This document shows positions 9,812-64,000 of a stretch of DNA of 64,000 nucleotides, in pieces. Positions within the stretch are counted from its first letter, which is position 1. The number at the start of each line of letters is the position of its first letter. Both the position numbers and the translations under genes were made by a program. Under the pieces are notes generated by a model. The model ran no database searches and was not told where the DNA came from. It was given only the letters and a program-made list of their open reading frames with translations. The DNA is from a virus (Duplodnaviria; Heunggongvirae; Uroviricota; Caudoviricetes): IMG/VR virus record IMGVR_UViG_2703718817_000003, one strand, 5' to 3'.

Positions 9812-10118
9812 GTACTCTCCTTTCGAAATAAACGTACTGATTAATCATTCCCAGGGGCATTTCGAGTTTTTCTGCGATCTCACGGCGGGGAACACCACAC
9901 TGATGAAGCTGCCGCGCCAGTTCTATATCGCTCTGCCGGTATTTGGCTGACTGGTGAAAGTCTCCTTTCAGAATCATGCTGATCCGCAGTTGCCGCGCTT
10001 TAGTCCTGACAGCACCACCGGTACGCCCGATCAGTCTCCCAATACCCTCGACTGTCATAGTCCCGGCGCACTGGCGGAGCATCATGATTTCTGCCCTTCC
10101 CCATCCCCGCCAGCTCAC
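9801..10118 (-). CDS. small helix-turn-helix DNA-binding protein
   Basis: 105 aa; HTH-like segments (GVPRREIAEKLEMPLGMINQYV); candidate transcription regulator. Confidence 0.4.
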   Translation of the reverse strand: MSWRGWGRAEIMMLRQCAGTMTVEGIGRLIGRTGGAVRTKARQLRISMILKGDFHQSAKYRQSDIELARQLHQCGVPRREIAEKLEMPLGMINQYVYFERRVHEV

Positions 10119-10726
10119 GCAGAACTCCTTCTAACCAAAAGAACGCCATCTTCAGAAACAATGTTGCAGGACTTCAGGTAATTCATTGCTACTTTCGGTA
10201 ATGGATTCTTTGGATCGGCGTTTGCCAGGGATTTCGATAACCTCATGATAAATTTGATCATTACCTTCTGACGGAGCTTGTGCTCATGAGATGCAGACAG
10301 GTAATAGGAAATGGTATGGGCTAAACGCTCACGAAGCTGTTCTGTGCCGTGATATACAGCAGCGATATCACGCAGTGCATTGACCAGTTCCCGGTAAATA
10401 TGCGGAGCAACCTGGCATTCAATGTTGGTTGGTGACTCATAAATTACATTCAGCCCCAGCTTTTGAGCCAGCTCGTGCTCTGCACGAGCGCCAACTGATT
10501 CCTCCCACCCCTTGAGCAAATAGACCGCATTAGCCGAACGCACCATTGCAAGGCAAATATCCATGTATTCGCTCTCGCAGAGGCCAGCAGGTAACAGCGC
10601 CGGATTCAGAACAATATGCCCTACCTCCATCAGCTCTTTTGCTTTCGAAAAAAACGCTGTGCGGTTGTAGTCGGGATAACCAGTCATCGGCCCTGCGATG
10701 TAAATTTTCATAATGCGTTTTGACAT
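10115..10726 (-). CDS. DUF4406 / nucleoside 2-deoxyribosyltransferase-like protein with C-terminal extension
   Basis: MKIYIAGPMTGYPDYNRTAFF...NPALLP N-terminal signature; start set at MSKR (10726) where upstream small ORF stop overlaps (TGATG). Confidence 0.5.
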   Translation of the reverse strand: MSKRIMKIYIAGPMTGYPDYNRTAFFSKAKELMEVGHIVLNPALLPAGLCESEYMDICLAMVRSANAVYLLKGWEESVGARAEHELAQKLGLNVIYESPTNIECQVAPHIYRELVNALRDIAAVYHGTEQLRERLAHTISYYLSASHEHKLRQKVMIKFIMRLSKSLANADPKNPLPKVAMNYLKSCNIVSEDGVLLVRRSSA

Positions 10727-10881
10727 CAAAGTTTCCCCAGGAACGTTACGCAAAAGTTGATGAGAGCAAAGAGTTCAATGCCCAGCTCAAACAACGCCAG
10801 GACAGTGAAAAACAGGGCATATAGCAACCCAATTTCTGTACCGGATTGCTGGTGGATTGCACTTATTGCGACAAGCATCAT
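10726..10881 (-). CDS. small hydrophobic peptide (about 50 aa), first gene of leftward operon
   Basis: ATG at 10881 with GGAGGT SD; product MMLVAISAIHQQSGTEIGLLYALFFTVLALFELGIELFALINFCVTFLGKL; below ORF-track size cutoff. Confidence 0.4.
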   Translation of the reverse strand: MMLVAISAIHQQSGTEIGLLYALFFTVLALFELGIELFALINFCVTFLGKL

Positions 10882-10953: not shown

Positions 10954-10997
10954 GTTTGATCAACCATAGCGGCGATGTAGACAAACCGGGTATTTCT

Positions 10998-11573
10998 ATG
11001 AAGCAAAGCTATTGGGAGAAACAGACACAAAAAGCCCTGCAAAAACTGGCTGATCCGAAATGGCGGGAGGAACAAAGGGCAAAGCGTCTTCAGCAAGCTC
11101 AACGCCTGCAGCAGCGTGCGCGAGAAAAAGCCGCATCGCCTGAATATCGGCAAAAGAAAATTGAAAAAGCGAAGCAATATGAACAGCGAAGAAAAGAGAA
11201 GGCCGCTTCTGCTCCTGTCAAAAAAACTCGCGCGTCACGCGGCCTGAAAGGCAGAACACTCACAGCAGATGAGCGCCGGATACAAACTGCCATCGGTGCT
11301 CTCCCCTGCATTGCCTGCCATATGCACGGACAGCATAGCCCTGTGGTATCCCTGCACCACATCTTCGGAAGAACAGCAGAGAACGCGCATAAATACGTCC
11401 TCCCTTTGTGTAAATGGCACCATCAACACGCAGCGCCAGCAGAGATCCGCGAGCAATACCCCTGGTTGGTTCCTGTTCATGCTGATGGAAAAATAGGCGG
11501 CAAAGCAGATTTCAGGCGGCACAATGCTGATGAAATGACGTTGTATCAGATGGTGACTGAATTAATAAATTAA
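10998..11573 (+). CDS. P1 Ref-like HNH-type protein (basic disordered N-terminus plus Cys/His core)
   Basis: Lys/Arg-rich N-terminal ~75 aa then CIACHMH...LHHIF...CKWHHQH; size (191 aa from ATG 10998) and architecture match phage P1 Ref. Confidence 0.5.
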   Translation: MKQSYWEKQTQKALQKLADPKWREEQRAKRLQQAQRLQQRAREKAASPEYRQKKIEKAKQYEQRRKEKAASAPVKKTRASRGLKGRTLTADERRIQTAIGALPCIACHMHGQHSPVVSLHHIFGRTAENAHKYVLPLCKWHHQHAAPAEIREQYPWLVPVHADGKIGGKADFRRHNADEMTLYQMVTELIN

Positions 11574-12072: not shown

Positions 12073-12178
12073 TAAAACACACAGTTGCGCCCTGGCATTA
12101 TCGTGGGGTATATTTCTACGGCACCTTAGAAAAACGGGTGCCGGGATTGGAACCCCGGATAATGTCAAAGGCGACACA

Positions 12179-12200
12179 GACGCCGAAAGCGTCTTTTTTT
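12179..12200 (+). terminator. Rho-independent terminator
   Basis: GACGC-CGAAA-GCGTC hairpin followed by TTTTTTT. Confidence 0.6.
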
Positions 12201-12224
12201 GTGTCATGCCATCGCGCAGCCATA

Positions 12225-12320
12225 CGTAGCGTTTAGCTCAGAGATCAATGGTAGTGCTGGCTGGGCTGCCGAAAGGCAGGCCGGTTCCCTTTGACGCCGG
12301 TAGTTCCAACCCAGTCAGTG
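12225..12320 (+). ncRNA. c4-like antisense RNA of immI-type module (copy 1)
   Basis: Contains b' CCCTTTGAC (12288-12296) and a' GTTCCAA (12303-12309) complementary to b2 GTCAAAGG (12367-12374, at the icd SD) and a2 TTGGAAC (12336-12342); same targets repeated upstream as a1/b1 (12147-12171); boundaries approximate. Confidence 0.45.
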
Positions 12321-12385
12321 CTACCGCCATTGAGATTGGAACCTCACGCGGTAGCTCCTTAACTTAGTCAAAGGAGGCTGCCAAT

Positions 12386-12601
12386 ATGGCTACTATCCCC
12401 ACCCCAACTCATTCTGAATTTATCTGGCGTTTCTATTCCTGCCAAAAACACCTCTATATCTGCGTCATGGCTGCTACCGAAGCAGAAGCGCGCTCATACC
12501 TTCCCGAAGAACCCTGCATTTTTGCTGCTCGCTTCACTCTTGATGCGATGGAGATCCTCAATTACTGGAATCTGCCGATGAACTGCGTGGAGGTGCACTG
12601 A
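12386..12601 (+). CDS. Icd-like small protein (immI module)
   Basis: 71 aa, AAGGAGG SD, stop overlaps rha start (TGATG); paralog of 63277..63501. Confidence 0.6.
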   Translation: MATIPTPTHSEFIWRFYSCQKHLYICVMAATEAEARSYLPEEPCIFAARFTLDAMEILNYWNLPMNCVEVH

Positions 12602-13542
12602 TGAATCTGTCCATCTCTCAAAAAGCGACAATGACCAGTATTGAAATCGCGGAACTGGTAGGTAAGCGTCATGATAATGTGAAGCGTACCATTGAAGTAT
12701 TAACTAAAGGTGGTGTCATTCAATTTCCTCAAATTGAGGAAATTGAAAATAAACAATCAGTTGGCCCTCGTCGATTTTCCAAGGCTTACATCTTTGAAGG
12801 CGAACAAGGCAAGCGTGACAGTATCATTGTCGTTGCGCAGCTCTCTCCGGAATTCACCGCCCGGCTGGTGGACCGCTGGCGCGAACTGGAGAATGCCAGG
12901 GGACCGTTAAAATCAAAAGCCGAAATCCTGGCTGAAATGGCGCAAATGCATCTTGAGCATGAACGCCGGATCAACGCTGTTAATGCCCAGGTAGCCGAAG
13001 TATCGGCACAAGTGTCCAAAGTCGCTGAAACCGTCGAGCAGATCAAGAAAGGCAACATACCAGAAGGTTACATTGGCTATCGCCAGTTAGCGGCGAAATG
13101 CGGCCTGACTGAAGCCAAATGCCGCAACCTGGTCAACGCTTACCGGATCCCCACAGATACGCATGAGTTTTTGACTCCCGACGGTTTGCTTGCGCGACGC
13201 TCAATTGTGGCCCTGGCCCCCTTCCGGAAAGCCTTTAAGCAGGTGATGTCGGAGGCAGAACCACGTAACAAACGCTGGTATCATCCCAGGATGGGGCTAT
13301 TTCAGGCCATTCACCATCCTGTGCCTGAAAGTCCAAAGGCAAACCTGTCGTTGCATACCGCCAGAGAGAAGATTAAAACAGGGTATGCAACCGTATGCCG
13401 TCGAGCATCCTGGCCTGAAAGTGTCTGGGTATGGCCCGAAAGAGGCTCACGGAAAAACTGGCGCACCATTCGCGACGGCAAGATCTGTGCGATTGATTTA
13501 CAGCCAGAAGATGTAGCAGCGACCGACTGGATTGTTAGTTAA
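12601..13542 (+). CDS. Rha-family phage regulatory/antirepressor protein
   Basis: N-terminal MTSIEIAELVGKRHDNVKRTIEVL... Phage_pRha-type signature; 313 aa. Confidence 0.75.
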   Translation: MNLSISQKATMTSIEIAELVGKRHDNVKRTIEVLTKGGVIQFPQIEEIENKQSVGPRRFSKAYIFEGEQGKRDSIIVVAQLSPEFTARLVDRWRELENARGPLKSKAEILAEMAQMHLEHERRINAVNAQVAEVSAQVSKVAETVEQIKKGNIPEGYIGYRQLAAKCGLTEAKCRNLVNAYRIPTDTHEFLTPDGLLARRSIVALAPFRKAFKQVMSEAEPRNKRWYHPRMGLFQAIHHPVPESPKANLSLHTAREKIKTGYATVCRRASWPESVWVWPERGSRKNWRTIRDGKICAIDLQPEDVAATDWIVS

Positions 13543-13549
13543 TAGATTT

Positions 13550-13572
13550 GCCCCGGTCATGCCGGGGCTTTA
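13550..13572 (+). terminator. hairpin terminator after rha
   Basis: GCCCCGG-TCATG-CCGGGGC stem-loop followed by TTT. Confidence 0.45.
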
Positions 13573-13598: not shown

Positions 13599-13919
13599 AT
13601 GTATGCCACGAAAAAAATTGATTTCACTTATTCTTCCGCCACAATTGAGCGGCGCTTCACCCTCATTAGAGAGTTGGAACTGTCAAAAGTCTGGTATCAA
13701 ATTCTACTGGATGAAGAGTTCTCACTGATGATAATGGCTGAAAAAGAAGCAATGCCGAATGACCGGCATAAAGTCATTGCCAGCCTTGACCTGGTGACAA
13801 ACAGATACTGGGAGACAGAGGAACTGCGTGAAGCGGGAGTAATTCGTGACCTGATGGAGAGTTCCGTTCCCCGCCGCTATCGTGCGGGAAACGAAATCTC
13901 CGTGATTAAAGGGGCTTAA
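13599..13919 (+). CDS. hypothetical protein
   Basis: 106 aa from ATG 13599 (ORF-track frame 13581..13919); no recognisable motif. Confidence 0.4.
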   Translation: MYATKKIDFTYSSATIERRFTLIRELELSKVWYQILLDEEFSLMIMAEKEAMPNDRHKVIASLDLVTNRYWETEELREAGVIRDLMESSVPRRYRAGNEISVIKGA

Positions 13920-18396: not shown

Positions 18397-18596
18397 GTGT
18401 TTGCAAGGACATGAATAGTACACTATTATGATGGTGAAGGAATGGTACATGTTGAACCAAACCTTCGAGGATGCAGCAGACTGAAGAAATTCAGACATCC
18501 CGCAACCAGCTATCATAACAGGTCAAACCAGTTGTGATACTTGGTCAAGGCAAAGTCCGGTAATGGCGTTCTGAATACCAGAAAATAATTTCTGGC

Positions 18597-18630
18597 GAAG
18601 CCCACCTTAAGGTGGGCTTTGTTATTTTGG
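18597..18630 (+). terminator. Rho-independent terminator between convergent genes
   Basis: AAGCCCACC-TTAA-GGTGGGCTT hairpin then TTTGTTATTTT. Confidence 0.7.
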
Positions 18631-52261: not shown

Positions 52262-52868
52262 GTCTAATTATGTTCTTCTTAATTATGATGAGTTAAACGA
52301 AAAGGGGCTGGCAAAACTCGTCAAAGAAATCGATAAAGGAGGCTACAAGATAGCGAGGGTGATCCCCGCCAGTAATGGCAGGAAGAAAGACGGGATCATG
52401 ACGCGCACGTTTACCCTTATCGGAATCGATGAGCAGACGATGGACGTTCAGGTTAATGATACTGGTGATATTTCTGGTGTAAAACTGAACGGAAAAATTG
52501 TTCCTTTCAAGCCAGTTAAAACGCTGATGGCTTTAGGGCAATCACTGGCTGCTTTATTTAATAAAGGCGCATCATCATTTCAGAAATCATTGGCGCGTAA
52601 GTTAGCTCGTGCGGCGAAAGATATTGATGATGGGAATAAGAAAATAAAAGGCGTTAAGTCCAATGCGCAGAAACTAGCAGAGGCAAAGGAATCTCGCGAT
52701 GCGATCCGCGAGGATATTGAAAGGGCCAAAGAAAAATTAAATCAGGTGCAAGGTAATTCAGACCGCGCAACAAGAGAAACTGAAATCATTAGAACCGAGA
52801 TGGCGCAGGAACTGGCGAAAACTCGCGTATTGAAAGAAGAAATAGCGCGCCTGGAGGAAGATGCATGA
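52251..52868 (+). CDS. hypothetical coiled-coil protein (dar-like operon)
   Basis: ATG 52251 with GGAGA SD; C-terminal half charged coiled-coil. Confidence 0.45.
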   Translation: MSNKSNYVLLNYDELNEKGLAKLVKEIDKGGYKIARVIPASNGRKKDGIMTRTFTLIGIDEQTMDVQVNDTGDISGVKLNGKIVPFKPVKTLMALGQSLAALFNKGASSFQKSLARKLARAAKDIDDGNKKIKGVKSNAQKLAEAKESRDAIREDIERAKEKLNQVQGNSDRATRETEIIRTEMAQELAKTRVLKEEIARLEEDA

Positions 52869-54817
52869 TAAAGAAACCTATTCGAATAAATATCCAGTCC
52901 ACTTTTGCAGATACGCTCACTGGATATACGCCTAATCGTTGGGTGGCGGAAGATATCACCGAGGATGATTTACTTATCGAGCCTGCGACGCTGGAAGATA
53001 TCGAGCTGGCCTATATGGGCAACGAAATTTTGGTAACTACCAATGAGGCAATGTTCGAAGCTATAACCACAACAAAATTGCGGTTAGCGCAAACAATGCG
53101 AGCATTTGTCCGGGCGCTTAATCGCGGCCTGAATGGCACTGACATTGCTGCGGGTACGGATGAGGCAGGTGAATATGAAGACGGACGTAATAGTATCGGT
53201 GGGGCAATCATTGGGCGCGTGCGCCGGGTTGCTAATATCCCTGTTGTAACAGCACAAATACCTCTAACCGATGGACAAACGACAAGCATAATTTTCCATT
53301 CTCCAACCGCAGACGGCACAAGAATTAAAGGGGATGACGAGCTGGTTGCGTTTCAGTTTCTTCTTAACAAAAGAAACGTTACGCATGTTGTTGCGCCAAT
53401 CGGTGGGCGTGATGTATCTCTGAGCCAGGTGTGTCAGGCGCTTTCTAACCTCATTGAGCGTAACAGTGCAAAATTCAAAAAAGCAAAGGAGCGCCAGGAC
53501 AAAATGAAGGCTGATATTGAGGGGTATCTCAATGAAGCCGACAAGCTGGCAGAAGAACGTTCTGTGCTGATTGAGCAGGTTGAAGACGCACAGCGGGGGC
53601 TGGCAGAGAAACGCTCAACACTCAATGATATGCAGAATAAATTAGACGCACAAAAAGCCCTTAACGCGGAATTGCAGGCTAAACGCGATAATTTATTGTC
53701 AGCTAAGAGCCAAGGAACTAAAGAGCGTGCCTTCAATGATCAACTGCGACACATAAAACATAATCTTGCTACAGAAGGCCAAACAACGCTGGATAATGGT
53801 GCTGTAGTTAAGTATGTCACGTCAGGCAGTGATAGCTTTGTCACGATTGAGGCACCAGAAGGCAATTTCAGTATTGATGTCAGTGCTGTTAAAGGTGGGA
53901 GTTCAGCGGACGCTGCAACCAAATTACTTAAAGCCTATCGTGAACATAATGCTGATCAATACAAAGTGGATGTGTTGCCGGGCCAGCCTGAGCCAACTGA
54001 TCAGCCGCAGCCTGAACAGGAGCCACAACCAGCATCACATCCTGATCCCCTGGAGGTTGGTAAATATCGCTATGCGCTCCAATCTCGCCCGGCGGGTGTT
54101 GGTGCGGTTCCTGAAGGAAATAAAGCTGTACTTGACCGTCCTGATCAGGCTGATCCGTATTACGAATATGCTCGTCACGGAATCATTACGTATGACCGCA
54201 AACTGACAGACGAAGAAGTCAGTCAGTACGAGTTGCTATATCTCCCTGGTGACGATGAATTGAAAGAGATTGCAGGCGAATTGGTTGCGTCCAGTATGTC
54301 GAACCATATTGATGGCTATGTTGATCTGTTTGGAAGCGACTTGAAAACCTTTAAGGCGCAGATAAAAATCCTCTTCCGCAAAGCATTTCCTAACGTCGCT
54401 TATCCACTTGGAGATGGGGAGAACCTTTTTATAATGGATATCTATGACGCGCTTCAGAATCAATCAGAAGTAGTCGAAGCTGAACAGACATTAGATCAGG
54501 CACCGGAAGCAGTACAAGAACCAGAACCTGAGTCTGAACCTGAATCCCCCCAAGAGTCTGATACAGGTTCAGATGGGCCAGTAGTTAGTGAGGCTGATCA
54601 GGAGGCGGACAGTGCGCTGGAATATCTGAAATCCGTGCCGTTGCAGTTTACGTCCCGTGATTTGACGGTGATTAGAGCGGAGTTTGATCGCATTCAGGAG
54701 GCAGCTAATGTTCTTATCAACGCAGGTCGATATGATGAGAACGAGTCACTTGTTGGTGCGGCAGCCGATCACCTGATCAACATTCTGGCAGAGATACAAC
54801 AAGGGGGCGTGTGGTGA
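52865..54817 (+). CDS. large hypothetical protein (DarA-like by size and position)
   Basis: 650 aa; ATGA overlap with upstream gene; acidic Pro/Glu-rich linkers; no enzymatic motif. Confidence 0.45.
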   Translation: MIKKPIRINIQSTFADTLTGYTPNRWVAEDITEDDLLIEPATLEDIELAYMGNEILVTTNEAMFEAITTTKLRLAQTMRAFVRALNRGLNGTDIAAGTDEAGEYEDGRNSIGGAIIGRVRRVANIPVVTAQIPLTDGQTTSIIFHSPTADGTRIKGDDELVAFQFLLNKRNVTHVVAPIGGRDVSLSQVCQALSNLIERNSAKFKKAKERQDKMKADIEGYLNEADKLAEERSVLIEQVEDAQRGLAEKRSTLNDMQNKLDAQKALNAELQAKRDNLLSAKSQGTKERAFNDQLRHIKHNLATEGQTTLDNGAVVKYVTSGSDSFVTIEAPEGNFSIDVSAVKGGSSADAATKLLKAYREHNADQYKVDVLPGQPEPTDQPQPEQEPQPASHPDPLEVGKYRYALQSRPAGVGAVPEGNKAVLDRPDQADPYYEYARHGIITYDRKLTDEEVSQYELLYLPGDDELKEIAGELVASSMSNHIDGYVDLFGSDLKTFKAQIKILFRKAFPNVAYPLGDGENLFIMDIYDALQNQSEVVEAEQTLDQAPEAVQEPEPESEPESPQESDTGSDGPVVSEADQEADSALEYLKSVPLQFTSRDLTVIRAEFDRIQEAANVLINAGRYDENESLVGAAADHLINILAEIQQGGVW

Positions 54818-62916: not shown

Positions 62917-62946
62917 ATGTTAGAAAATTAAATTGATGTTTCTAAT
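62917..62946. promoter_or_regulatory. palindromic operator-like site upstream of second immI module
   Basis: ATGTTAGAAAATTAAATTGATGTTTCTAAT; further half-site TCTTTCTAATG at 63005-63015. Confidence 0.5.
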
Positions 62947-63139
62947 CAAGAATGTATGATTTATATCGTCACTAAAAAACAGCATCTGATAAAAATTCTG
63001 TTGATCTTTCTAATGTTCAGGCTTATATTCATGCCGTCGTAGCAAATTCTGCGACCGGGTTTAGCAGCCTGAATGTTAGTGCGGACAACCGCAGATATCC
63101 GATATTGCGGTATTTTTGTGTCCGTAAAACCGCGTTACG

Positions 63140-63225
63140 CCCAAATTATGGTGGGGCGTGATGGGGAGGCTTCGGCCTGCTGGTTTCACTAACGCCAGTC
63201 TGCTAACCCCGTCACGTCCTGCCAC
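63140..63225 (+). ncRNA. c4-like antisense RNA of immI-type module (copy 2, different specificity)
   Basis: b' TTCACTAAC (63185-63193) and a' CTGCTAA (63200-63206) complementary to b2 GTTAGTGAG (63260-63268, includes SD) and a2 TTAGCAG (63230-63236); a1/b1 copies at 63061-63081; boundaries approximate. Confidence 0.45.
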
Positions 63226-63276
63226 CTGTTTAGCAGCGGGTAGCAGGTTGTTAAACCTGTTAGTGAGGCCGTAACT

Positions 63277-63501
63277 ATGGTTAATGCCAATCCTTGCTCA
63301 CGTCCAGAATTCATCTGGCGTTTTCACTCCCTGCAAAAACACTGCGATCACTTCGCAATTGCCGCAACTGAAAAAGAAGCCCGTTCTCTGATCCCGGATC
63401 AGTATGGCGTTCTCACTGGTCGTTTCTCTACTTCCCCACAACCAAACACCAATCCCTGGTATCGCAATATTACCAATCCCGGCATTGTGGAGGCTCACTG
63501 A
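63277..63501 (+). CDS. Icd-like small protein (immI module copy 2)
   Basis: 74 aa paralog of 12386..12601 (PEFIWRFHSLQKH...); stop overlaps rha start. Confidence 0.6.
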   Translation: MVNANPCSRPEFIWRFHSLQKHCDHFAIAATEKEARSLIPDQYGVLTGRFSTSPQPNTNPWYRNITNPGIVEAH

Positions 63502-63986
63502 TGGATATCTGCATTCTCGAAAAGCCATCAATGACAAGCATTGAGATCGCGGAGCTGGTGGGAAAACGTCATGACAATGTGAAACGCACTATTGAGACAT
63601 TAGCCAAAGGTGGCGTTATTGTTCGTCCTCAAATTGAGGTTTTCGAAAAAATCAATAACTTAGGACTACGACGTAGTGTTGAGGCTTACGTCTTCGAAGG
63701 CGAGCAAGGCAAGCGCGATAGCATTATCGTCGTCGCGCAGCTCTCTCCCGAATTCACCGCCCGGCTGGTGGACCGCTGGCGCGAACTGGAAGAACAAGTA
63801 CGCCAGCCGTTGACCGAAATAGAGATGATCGCTGCAATGGCTGCAAATGCAGTTCAGCAGCAAAAGCGGCTTCATGTTGTTGAGTCAAAGGTTAGCCAGG
63901 TTGCTGAAACCGTCGAGCAGATCAAGAAAGGCAATATTCCGGAAGGCTACATTGGCTATCGCCAGTTGGCGGCAAATGCGGCCTGA
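63501..63986 (+). CDS. Rha-family protein, copy 2, apparently frameshifted/truncated
   Basis: N-terminal 150 aa paralogous to 12601..13542; 1-nt deletion relative to copy 1 near 63975 (GCGGCAAATGC vs GCGGCGAAATGC) gives stop at 63986. Confidence 0.55.
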   Translation: MDICILEKPSMTSIEIAELVGKRHDNVKRTIETLAKGGVIVRPQIEVFEKINNLGLRRSVEAYVFEGEQGKRDSIIVVAQLSPEFTARLVDRWRELEEQVRQPLTEIEMIAAMAANAVQQQKRLHVVESKVSQVAETVEQIKKGNIPEGYIGYRQLAANAA

Positions 63987-64000
63987 CTGAAGCCAAATGC

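What the first reader, a model, noticed from the sequence alone, without database searches (positions are those of the whole stretch)
12140..12601. P1 immI-type antisense control module (a1/b1 - c4-like RNA - a2/b2 - icd - rha), copy 1
Two short elements inside a structured region (CCCTTTGAC at 12288 and GTTCCAA at 12303) are complementary to GTCAAAGG at 12367, which overlaps the icd Shine-Dalgarno, and to TTGGAAC at 12336. The same two target sequences also occur upstream at 12147-12171. This a1/b1, antisense a'/b', a2/b2 arrangement is exactly the logic of P1/P7 c4 RNA control of icd-ant, here driving a Rha-family protein instead of Ant.
Basis: partly seen in the sequence, partly recalled or inferred. 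Interest (0 to 1): 0.6.

Follow-up and report, generated by a model that had tools for sequence, protein, structure and literature searches.

The report
P1-type C4 antisense immunity module
This is a genuine copy of the well-known phage P1 "immI" switch, in which a small antisense RNA (C4) blocks the ribosome site of a cell-division inhibitor gene and a downstream lytic regulator; it sits in a D6-like plasmid prophage where the switch has already been noted, so it is real but ordinary.

Summary
Rfam places a C4 antisense RNA at 12244-12331 (77.1 bits, cut-off 45). It also places an isrK-family leader carrying a1/b1 and an intrinsic terminator at 12121-12199 (62.7 bits, cut-off 50). The C4 elements b' (12288-95) and a' (12303-09) are exact complements of a1/b1 (12147-53, 12164-71) and of a2/b2 (12336-42, 12367-74). 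Site b2 overlaps the Shine-Dalgarno of an Icd homologue that is 63% identical to P1 Icd. Across 27 specificity types from about 100 related loci, a'/b' co-vary with both target pairs: 98.8% and 99.4% of cells pair, against 25-47% when the register is slid, and 0 of 500 shuffles reach the observed values. The downstream 313-aa gene is Rha-type and is not homologous to P1 Ant1.

The window is a D6-like phage-plasmid. Phage D6 is annotated with icd and an anti-repressor here, and a 2019 paper describes two c4-icd regions in D6-like plasmids. It is therefore already known.

One side result is of more interest. The Gifsy-1 "IsrK-orf45-anrP" locus is the same module: IsrK is the a1/b1 leader and orf45 is C4. 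This suggests the leader acts as a decoy for C4.

The parts
12085..12114 (+). Putative sigma-70 promoter of the module: -35 TTGCGC (12085-90), 18-nt spacer, -10 TATATT (12109-14). The inferred transcription start is about 12121.
   Evidence: Read from the sequence. TTGCG and a TATnnT hexamer are kept at the same positions in divergent relatives (alignment). The isrK model starts at 12121. The consensus scan did not call it because the -35 matches only 3 of 6. Inferred.
12121..12199 (+). Leader sRNA of the isrK family. It has hairpin 1 (12121-41), hairpin 2 with a1 in its loop, single-stranded b1, and an intrinsic terminator.
   Evidence: Rfam RF01394 scores 62.7 bits against GA 50. c4-a1b1 RF03163 scores only 22.4 bits against GA 46.7. 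The fold is -24.9 kcal/mol with three hairpins.
12147..12153 (+). a1 (TTGGAAC), complementary to a'.
   Evidence: Covariation with a' gives 99.5% of cells paired, with 4 of 7 pairs changed on both sides.
12164..12171 (+). b1 (GTCAAAGG), complementary to b'.
   Evidence: Covariation with b' gives 98.2% of cells paired, with 7 of 8 pairs changed on both sides.
12178..12201 (+). Intrinsic terminator of the leader: AGACGC-CGAAA-GCGTCT followed by T7.
   Evidence: Terminator scan. It forms the 3' part of the isrK model. P1 and copy 2 have an equivalent hairpin with a T-run ending TTTTTGTGTC.
12244..12331 (+). C4 antisense RNA gene (Rfam match). By analogy with the 77-nt P1 C4, the predicted mature RNA is 12250-12328 (79 nt), ending in a 3' GCC overhang.
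   Evidence: RF01695 scores 77.1 bits against GA 45. The fold has z = -5.5. In the internal helices 99.9% of cells pair, and 14 pairs have double-sided changes. The P1 c4 ends are in the annotation.
12288..12295 (+). b' (CCTTTGAC), in the loop of the second C4 hairpin.
12303..12309 (+). a' (GTTCCAA), in the unpaired stretch between hairpin 2 and the closing stem of C4.
12336..12342 (+). a2 (TTGGAAC), a target of a' that lies in the loop of a small hairpin (GAG...CTC).
   Evidence: 100% of cells pair with a' in 23 specificity types.
12367..12377 (+). b2 (GTCAAAGG, 12367-74), overlapping the icd Shine-Dalgarno AAGGAGG (12371-77).
   Evidence: 98.9% of cells pair with b'.
12386..12601 (+). icd homologue (71 aa), a host cell-division inhibitor. 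Its stop overlaps the next start (TGATG).
   Evidence: NCBIfam NF033153 scores 49.4 bits against a cut-off of 25. It is 63% identical to P1 Icd, E 6e-28. phrog_1426, E 3.7e-41.
12601..13542 (+). Rha-family gene (313 aa), the cargo of the module. It is a presumed antirepressor or lytic regulator.
   Evidence: PF09669 scores 37.5 bits against 29.9 over residues 11-98. phrog_63 'anti-repressor Ant', E 1.5e-60, covers residues 2-313. It is 85% identical to D6 orf82, annotated as an anti-repressor. It is not similar to P1 Ant1 or Gifsy-1 AnrP.
13550..13571 (+). Terminator-like hairpin after the Rha gene: GCCCCGG-TCATG-CCGGGGC followed by TTT.
   Evidence: Read from the sequence only. The scan did not call it because the T-run is short. 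Inferred.
12248..12367 (+). 39-codon ORF lying over C4, named 'ash family protein' in RefSeq plasmids and equivalent to 'orf45' of Gifsy-1. It is most likely not a conserved protein gene.
   Evidence: RefSeq annotation. Substitutions in this stretch preserve RNA pairs. Relatives differ by a 2-nt indel in hairpin 1. Here the ORF stops 19 nt before the icd ATG.

Best explanation
Window 12085-13570 is the immI-type anti-immunity operon of a D6-like phage-plasmid.

Transcription and processing. Transcription starts near 12121. Part of it stops at the leader terminator (about 12199), giving an IsrK-like RNA of about 79 nt that displays a1 and b1. Read-through transcripts carry C4, a2/b2, icd and the Rha-type gene. 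C4 is cut out of this transcript; in P1 the 5' cut is made by RNase P.

Repression. C4 uses its loop b' and its single-stranded a' to pair with a2 and b2. This covers the icd ribosome site. With icd untranslated, the overlapping Rha-type gene is not translated either. In P1, transcription is additionally terminated by Rho inside icd. When C4 is limiting or titrated, Icd (a division inhibitor) and the Rha-type protein (a presumed antagonist of the C1-like repressor, or a lytic regulator) are made.

Role of the leader. The a1/b1 leader competes for the same C4 surfaces and probably acts as a decoy.

What is shown here: the RNA family memberships, the complementarities and their three-way covariation, the Icd homology, and the gene overlap. 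What is inferred from P1 and Gifsy-1: processing, action in trans, Rho polarity, the decoy role, and the antirepressor function of the Rha-type protein.
For: Rfam C4 scores 77.1 bits and isrK 62.7 bits, both above their gathering scores. The complementarities are exact, and the geometry is close to P1's. The a-to-b start-to-start distance is 17 nt upstream and 31 nt downstream here, against 14 and 29 in P1. The gap from the end of b2 to the ATG is 11 nt here and 10 nt in P1.

In 104 unique C4-bearing modules, 92 have a perfect a1/a'/a2 triple, 11 have one G-U, and 1 has a mismatched a1. There are 27 distinct (a, b) combinations; the exact b1 and b2 complements of the b' loop are 7-10 nt long in most of them (shorter exact runs in the remainder). 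Formal counts: a'/b' with a1/b1 gives 98.8% of cells paired and 139 double-sided changes, with 0 of 500 shuffles as high and slid controls at 32-47%. a'/b' with a2/b2 gives 99.4% paired and 105 double-sided changes, with slid controls at 25-44%. The C4 helices pair in 99.9% of cells.

Icd is 63% identical to P1 Icd. icd and the Rha gene overlap as TGATG. The Rha-type product matches PHROG 63 'anti-repressor Ant' over its full length. The locus lies between ref and the pmgF/simB/mat homologues; in P1, immI is likewise flanked by the sim genes and lies a few kb from pmgF.

The P1 mechanism is taken from the P1 record annotation and PMC8198154. In Gifsy-1, published mutants G28A/G31A and C162U/C159U fall exactly in a1 and a'.
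Against: There are no expression data for this element. No P1-type C1 operator (ATTGCTCTAATAAATTT, up to 3 mismatches) occurs anywhere in the window. No C1 homologue lies inside the window; D6 has one elsewhere.

The cargo is not homologous to P1 Ant1, to Gifsy-1 AnrP, or to any solved structure by sequence, so 'antirepressor' rests on position and PHROG naming. Covariation cannot tell action in trans from pairing in cis. The minimum-energy fold of the unprocessed transcript 12121-12400 pairs a1/b1 with a'/b' in cis. The leader terminator means that the C4 supply depends on read-through.
Confidence: 0.88

Rival explanations
1. IsrK-type activation model, as proposed for Gifsy-1. The long transcript folds so that the leader (a1/b1) pairs in cis with the 'orf45' region, which keeps the operon translationally silent. 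The short leader sRNA, acting in trans, displaces this pairing. It thereby allows translation of the small upstream ORF (here 12248-12367), which is coupled to the downstream genes. No processed antisense repressor is needed.
For: The leader is an isrK family member. The minimum-energy fold of 12121-12400 shows a1/b1 paired with a'/b' in cis. In Gifsy-1, IsrK supplied in trans raises anrP translation 139-fold, and orf45 start-codon mutations reduce this activation (PMC4825925).
Against: It does not explain why a2 and b2 co-vary with a'/b' as tightly as a1/b1 do (99.4%). It does not explain why b2 always overlaps the ribosome site. In this window the small ORF ends 19 nt before the icd ATG rather than overlapping it. 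Its reading frame is not conserved, given the 2-nt indel in hairpin 1. In Gifsy-1 the a1 plus a' double mutants did not restore repression (224 and 327 units against 4 for wild type). That result is what the C4-to-a2 model predicts. This rival is partly compatible with the best explanation, because activation by the leader amounts to titration of C4.
Confidence: 0.08
2. Purely cis-acting structured 5' UTR. The C4-like fold is never released. Its a'/b' elements sequester a2/b2 within the same molecule, and a1/b1 act as an anti-sequestor, in the manner of an attenuator.
For: All six elements lie on one transcript. Covariation is blind to the difference between cis and trans pairing. Alternative folds are predicted.
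Against: In P1 and P7, C4 is a processed 77-nt RNA that acts in trans and defines heteroimmunity (P1 record; PMC6906374; Citron and Schuster 1990 from my own knowledge). The closing stem and the CC-R-CC 3' end are invariant in all 28 aligned types, as expected for an RNase P substrate. Two modules with non-cross-reacting a/b sequences coexist in this window, which only matters if the RNAs can act in trans.
Confidence: 0.03
3. The stretch 12248-12367 encodes a small 'Ash family' protein, and the complementarities are incidental.
For: RefSeq annotates an 'ash family protein' here. The 39-aa translation hits four PHROGs weakly (best E 5e-8).
Against: It has no Pfam or NCBIfam hit. Substitutions preserve base pairs rather than codons. 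There are frame-breaking indels among relatives. The PHROG hits align to internal segments of longer 'regulators', as expected for ORFs called across C4 genes. The geometry test gives 1 hit in 127,200 positions.
Confidence: 0.01

Closest known systems
Phage P1/P7 immI operon (a1 b1 - c4 - a2 b2 - icd - ant1/ant2)
   Same: It has the same RNA family (RF01695) and the same order and near-identical spacing of the six short elements. Site b2 lies on the icd ribosome site. Icd is 63% identical. icd overlaps the next gene. The genomic neighbourhood is partly shared (sim and pmgF homologues nearby).
   Different: The cargo is a Rha-domain protein, not the KilAC/ANT-domain Ant1/Ant2. The leader matches isrK rather than c4-a1b1 (22.4 bits). 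The a and b sequences differ. No P1-type C1 operator is present. There is no kilA-repL downstream.
Phage D6 orf83-orf82 locus and D6-like plasmid prophages (for example pYU39_89)
   Same: This is the direct orthologue. It is 88% identical in DNA across the whole module, with the same gene order (ref ... icd, anti-repressor, pmgF, simB, mat). E. coli plasmids of about 90 kb are 94-96% identical across this 1.46-kb module. PMC6799933 already reports an ImmI-related region with c4, icd and an antirepressor, plus a second c4-icd region.
   Different: D6 itself carries a different specificity at both keys (a TTGAGAC/GTCTCAA; b GCAAAAGG/CCTTTTGC), with all three sites changed together. D6 does not annotate the RNA genes.
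Gifsy-1 isrK-orf45-anrP locus (Salmonella)
   Same: It has the same leader family (isrK, 79.3 bits), followed by a C4 hit (69 bits) and a2/b2 on the ribosome site of the next gene. The a1-a' pairing has been tested by mutagenesis.
   Different: It has no icd; C4 directly precedes an ORF6N-domain protein, AnrP. The published model treats the C4 region as a translated ORF and IsrK as an activator, and it does not mention P1.
P4 CI RNA and N15 CA RNA immunity (from my own knowledge; not tested here)
   Same: A small RNA is processed from the same transcript it controls, and complementary sites lie both upstream and downstream of it.
   Different: These systems act by premature transcription termination rather than by occluding a ribosome site.

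Membership tests
C4 antisense RNA (Rfam RF01695) | Match to the covariance model at or above the gathering score | tested here: met
   77.1 bits against 45, full length 1-87, at 12244-12331.
C4 antisense RNA (Rfam RF01695) | Long closing stem plus two hairpins, supported by compensatory changes | tested here: met
   99.9% of 756 cells pair. 14 pairs have double-sided changes. 0 of 500 shuffles are as high, and slid controls give 32-50%.
P1-type immI module | Unpaired a' and b' complementary to a2 and b2, with b2 over the ribosome site of the first gene | tested here: met
   The 7- and 8-nt complements are exact, and b2 (12367-74) overlaps AAGGAGG. Covariation gives 99.4% of cells paired.
P1-type immI module | A second copy of the targets (a1, b1) upstream of c4 on the same strand | tested here: met
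   The sites are at 12147-53 and 12164-71. Covariation gives 98.8% of cells paired.
P1-type immI module | The first gene is icd | tested here: met
   NF033153 scores 49.4 bits against 25. Identity to P1 Icd is 63%.
P1-type immI module | The second gene, overlapping icd, is the Ant1/Ant2 antirepressor (KilAC/ANT domain) | tested here: not met
   The overlap is present (TGATG), but the product is Rha-type (PF09669). It lacks PF03374 and is not similar to Ant1.
P1-type immI module | C4 is excised from the operon transcript by RNase P and acts in trans; blocked icd translation causes Rho termination | not testable with these tools
   Only indirect evidence exists: the 5' G and the CC-R-CC 3' end are invariant.
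P1-type immI module | C1 operator at the operon promoter | tested here: inconclusive
   No P1 operator consensus occurs in the window. The operator of the D6 C1-like repressor is unknown.
isrK sRNA (Rfam RF01394) | Match at or above the gathering score, including the terminal intrinsic terminator | tested here: met
   62.7 bits against 50, positions 1-77. The terminator was also called independently.
isrK sRNA (Rfam RF01394) | Hfq binding, and production of a stable short RNA | not testable with these tools
   No expression or binding data are available.
c4-a1b1 motif (Rfam RF03163) | Match at or above the gathering score | tested here: not met
   Copy 1 scores 22.4 bits against 46.7. Copy 2 of the window (53.9 bits) and Gifsy-1 (48.1 bits) do pass.
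Rha family (Pfam PF09669) | N-terminal Rha domain above the gathering score | tested here: met
   37.5 bits against 29.9 over residues 11-98. TIGR02681 scores only 18.7 against 45.95.

The most novel reading that the evidence does not exclude
The terminated a1/b1 leader (IsrK family) is a dedicated decoy sRNA for C4. On this reading the switch has three RNA sites: leader abundance sets how much C4 is free to shut the icd-cargo operon. The Gifsy-1 'IsrK-orf45-anrP' system would then be a P1-type c4 module that was read differently: orf45 is C4, STnc1160 is the processed C4, and IsrK is an anti-antisense. In addition, the a and b keys vary independently (at least 27 combinations among about 100 unique loci, with clear mix-and-match recombinants). 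They would form a two-key specificity code that lets two non-cross-reacting modules coexist in one phage-plasmid. I found no paper in the searchable library that links IsrK to P1 c4.
Probability: 0.5. Interest if true: 0.5.

Novelty: already known. Interest (0 to 1): 0.2.

Why it matters
For the genome scan, this is a correct call of a textbook phage regulatory module in a lineage where it has already been annotated, so it adds little on its own.

Its wider value is as a clean natural example of RNA-RNA specificity evolving by co-ordinated change at three sites. It also shows that the isrK family and the P1 a1/b1 leader are the same element. That would simplify the reading of antirepressor control in Gifsy-1, in the many Stx prophages that showed similarity to this leader-C4 region (two of whose GenBank records annotate both RNAs), and in P1- and D6-like phage-plasmids. 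The Stx prophages and the P1/D6-like plasmids are common in clinical E. coli and Salmonella.

Tried and rejected
1. A possible third C4 target inside the pmgF-like gene (TTGGAAC at 13674, followed by GTCAAAAG). Relatives with other a/b specificities keep the same sequence there, so there is no covariation and it is chance.

2. A P1-type C1 operator near the promoter. There are no matches in the window at up to 3 mismatches.

3. A C1 repressor gene in the window. P1 C1 gives no tblastn hit. D6 has its C1-like gene at 227-1264 of its record, which lies outside the part covered by the window.

4. Homology of the Rha-type cargo to P1 Ant1, to Gifsy-1 AnrP, or to any solved structure. None was found.

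5. Membership of the copy 1 leader in c4-a1b1. It scores below the gathering score.

6. The 'ash family' ORF as a real protein gene. Rejected on covariation and indels.

7. The first a2/b2 count on alignment A1 gave 89.3%, because five rows of a divergent subgroup were shifted by 1-3 columns. It was redone without them. Their complementarity was checked separately.

8. The D6 genome paper (Gilcrease and Casjens 2018) could not be read.

9. An internal promoter for C4 between 12200 and 12243. None is evident, and this spacer is the least conserved part of the module.

Full report
**What is in the sequence.**
- a1, TTGGAAC, 12147-53
- b1, GTCAAAGG, 12164-71
- b', CCTTTGAC, 12288-95 (the 9-mer CCCTTTGAC starts at 12287)
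- a', GTTCCAA, 12303-09
- a2, TTGGAAC, 12336-42
- b2, GTCAAAGG, 12367-74

Site b2 overlaps the Shine-Dalgarno AAGGAGG (12371-77) of an ORF that starts at 12386. The antisense elements are in the inverse order of the targets, as antiparallel pairing requires. I also scanned every position of both strands for an 8-mer and 7-mer in this geometry whose complements occur in the right order both upstream and downstream. This locus was the only one among 127,200 positions.

**RNA family tests.** Rfam C4 (RF01695) matches 12244-12331 over the full model at 77.1 bits, against a gathering score of 45. The upstream a1/b1 region is itself a family member: isrK (RF01394) matches 12121-12199 at 62.7 bits against 50. 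That match includes an intrinsic terminator, AGACGC-CGAAA-GCGTCT followed by T7, which the terminator scan also finds. The related c4-a1b1 model reaches only 22.4 bits here.

By analogy with the annotated 77-nt P1 C4, the mature RNA would be 12250-12328. That 79-mer folds at -46.7 kcal/mol (z = -5.5). It has a long closing stem and two hairpins, with b' in the second loop and a' in the unpaired stretch.

**Evolutionary test.** I collected relatives through the Icd protein and through the leader sequence. This gave 104 unique modules that carry a C4. Of these, 92 have a perfect a1/a'/a2 triple. Eleven, all from one lineage, have a single G-U in a'-a2. One (L036) has a leader whose a1 no longer matches and looks like a recombinant.

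The b' loop is far more variable. There are 27 different (a, b) combinations. The exact complements of the b' loop at b1 and b2 are 7-10 nt long in most of them; in the remainder the exact runs are shorter. The same a occurs with different b, and the reverse.

Formal counts were made on one representative per type.
- a'/b' with a1/b1: 98.8% of cells pair, with 139 double-sided changes. Slid controls give 32-47%, and 0 of 500 shuffles are as high.
- a'/b' with a2/b2: 99.4% of cells pair, with 105 double-sided changes. Slid controls give 25-44%. A first count of 89.3% was depressed by five misaligned rows.
- C4 internal helices: 99.9% of cells pair, and 14 pairs have double-sided changes.

Phage D6 itself differs from the window at both keys, and all three sites changed together in each case. 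The interaction is therefore under selection, and the upstream a1/b1 pair is constrained as strongly as the ribosome-site pair.

**The genes.** The 71-aa ORF (12386-12601) is an Icd homologue. NCBIfam NF033153 scores 49.4 bits against a cut-off of 25, and identity to P1 Icd is 63% at E 6e-28. P1 Icd blocks division by acting on FtsZ (PMC11897509, listed).

Its stop overlaps the start of a 313-aa gene (TGATG). That product has an N-terminal Rha domain (PF09669, 37.5 bits against 29.9). It matches PHROG 63 'anti-repressor Ant' over its whole length (E 1.5e-60). It has no real similarity to P1 Ant1, which carries the KilAC/ANT domain. It is also unlike Gifsy-1 AnrP, an ORF6N protein.

Among the collected modules, the same leader-C4-icd cassette precedes a P1-type Ant1 in 27 unique loci and a Rha-type gene in 16. 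In other modules C4 directly precedes unrelated ORFs with no icd. The cargo is therefore exchangeable.

**Where it comes from.** The window is a D6-like phage-plasmid. The 1.46-kb module is 94-96% identical to Escherichia plasmids of about 90 kb, and a 7-kb stretch around it reaches 95-98%. It is 88% identical to phage D6, where the two genes are annotated as 'Icd-like' and 'anti-repressor Ant'. The module sits between ref and the pmgF/simB/mat homologues; P1 immI is likewise flanked by the sim genes and lies a few kb from pmgF. A 2019 paper on D6-like plasmids states that they have an ImmI-related region with c4, icd and an antirepressor, and a second c4-icd region (PMC6799933). Some Stx-phage GenBank records even annotate 'C4 antisense RNA' and 'isrK' side by side. 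The finding is therefore real but already known.

**Mechanism.** Shown here: the family memberships, the complementarities and their covariation, the placement of b2 on the ribosome site, the Icd homology, and the gene overlap.

Inferred from P1 (the record annotation; PMC8198154; the Schuster laboratory papers from my own knowledge): C4 is cut from the operon's own transcript by RNase P. It pairs with a2/b2 and blocks icd translation. That in turn prevents expression of the coupled downstream gene, in P1 through Rho termination. The invariant 5' G and CC-R-CC 3' end across all types fit an RNase P substrate.

No P1-type C1 operator is present, and the C1-like gene lies outside the window. How the operon is tied to the main repressor is therefore open. 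The 'antirepressor' role of the Rha-type protein rests on position and naming only; I rate it at about 0.5.

**The leader and IsrK.** In Gifsy-1, isrK (79.3 bits) also passes the c4-a1b1 threshold. It is followed by a C4 hit (69 bits) inside what was published as 'orf45'. After that come a2, and then b2 on the anrP ribosome site.

Numbering from the isrK start, the published IsrK mutations G28A and G31A lie in a1, and the orf45 mutations C162U and C159U are their exact partners in a'. The double mutants did not restore repression: they gave 224 and 327 units against 4 for wild type. This is expected if a' must also pair with the unchanged a2. The 80-nt processed 'orf45'' species (STnc1160) would then be C4.

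That paper never mentions P1, and a 2025 review lists IsrK and c4 separately. No other paper in the library links them. IsrK supplied in trans activates anrP 139-fold. The simplest unifying reading is that the terminated leader is a decoy for C4. In this window the minimum-energy fold of the unprocessed transcript does pair a1/b1 with a'/b' in cis. This is the most novel reading the evidence allows. It concerns the family rather than this locus.

**Verdict.** Novelty is 'already known', and interest is low for the locus itself.

Noticed in passing
window 63023-63986: A second immI module lies here. It has a c4-a1b1 leader (53.9 bits), a C4 (70 bits), a 74-aa Icd and a Rha-type paralogue (65% identical to copy 1). 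It sits just downstream of a repL-like gene. Its leader, C4 and target sites (63010-63290) are 96% identical to phage P7 and 94% to P1. Its keys (a TTAGCAG/CTGCTAA; b GTTAGTG/CACTAAC) do not match those of copy 1, so the two modules should not cross-react.
   Followed up: partly
window about 63975 (ORF 63501-63986): The Rha-type gene of copy 2 has a 1-nt deletion relative to both D6 orf18 and copy 1 (GCGGC-AAATGC against GCGGCGAAATGC). This gives a stop after 161 aa instead of about 235. It is either a pseudogene or a sequencing error. The window ends at 64000.
   Followed up: partly
L204 (Gifsy-1, NC_010392) 34316-34076, minus strand: The published isrK-orf45-anrP locus is a P1-type c4 module. 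isrK is the a1/b1 leader, and a C4 hit lies inside orf45. The published G28/G31 and C162/C159 mutations are a1-a' partners, and the failure of the double mutants to restore repression fits an uncompensated a2.
   Followed up: yes
window 18435-18620: There is a full-length Rfam sroH match (113 bits against 80) inside a phage-plasmid. sroH is known as an E. coli chromosomal sRNA.
   Followed up: no
window 62933-62945 and 63001-63013: A direct repeat, TTGATGTTTCTAA and TTGATCTTTCTAA, lies 68 nt apart just upstream of the copy 2 leader. D6 has TTGCTGTTTCTAA at the equivalent place. It may be an operator or promoter element of the D6-type repressor. Window-wide matches are not above chance (7 against 4.2 expected).
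   Followed up: partly
L098 7115-7404 (-) and L131 5793-6082 (+): Two relatives carry an insertion of about 40 nt between the leader terminator and C4. It contains TTGGTG...TGTATAAT, an extended -10-like promoter that could transcribe C4 independently of the leader.
   Followed up: no
L036 1745-2034: This is a natural recombinant. Its a1 is TTGAGAC, but a' and a2 are of the TTGGAAC type. The leader therefore no longer matches its own C4 at the a key, while b1/b'/b2 still match.
   Followed up: no
Phage RCS47 (NC_042128) 103405-103819 and 52747-53027; phage JL22 96407-96821: These P1-like phages also carry two modules. One is a P7-type c4-icd at the usual place. The other is a copy 1-like isrK-leader/C4/icd stretch (87-89% identical) that is unannotated in RCS47.
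   Followed up: no
window 10956-11573 and 10115-10753: The neighbours of the module are a Ref-like RecA-dependent nuclease (PF16786, E 6e-36) and, on the opposite strand, a DUF4406 protein. This matches the D6 gene order.
   Followed up: partly
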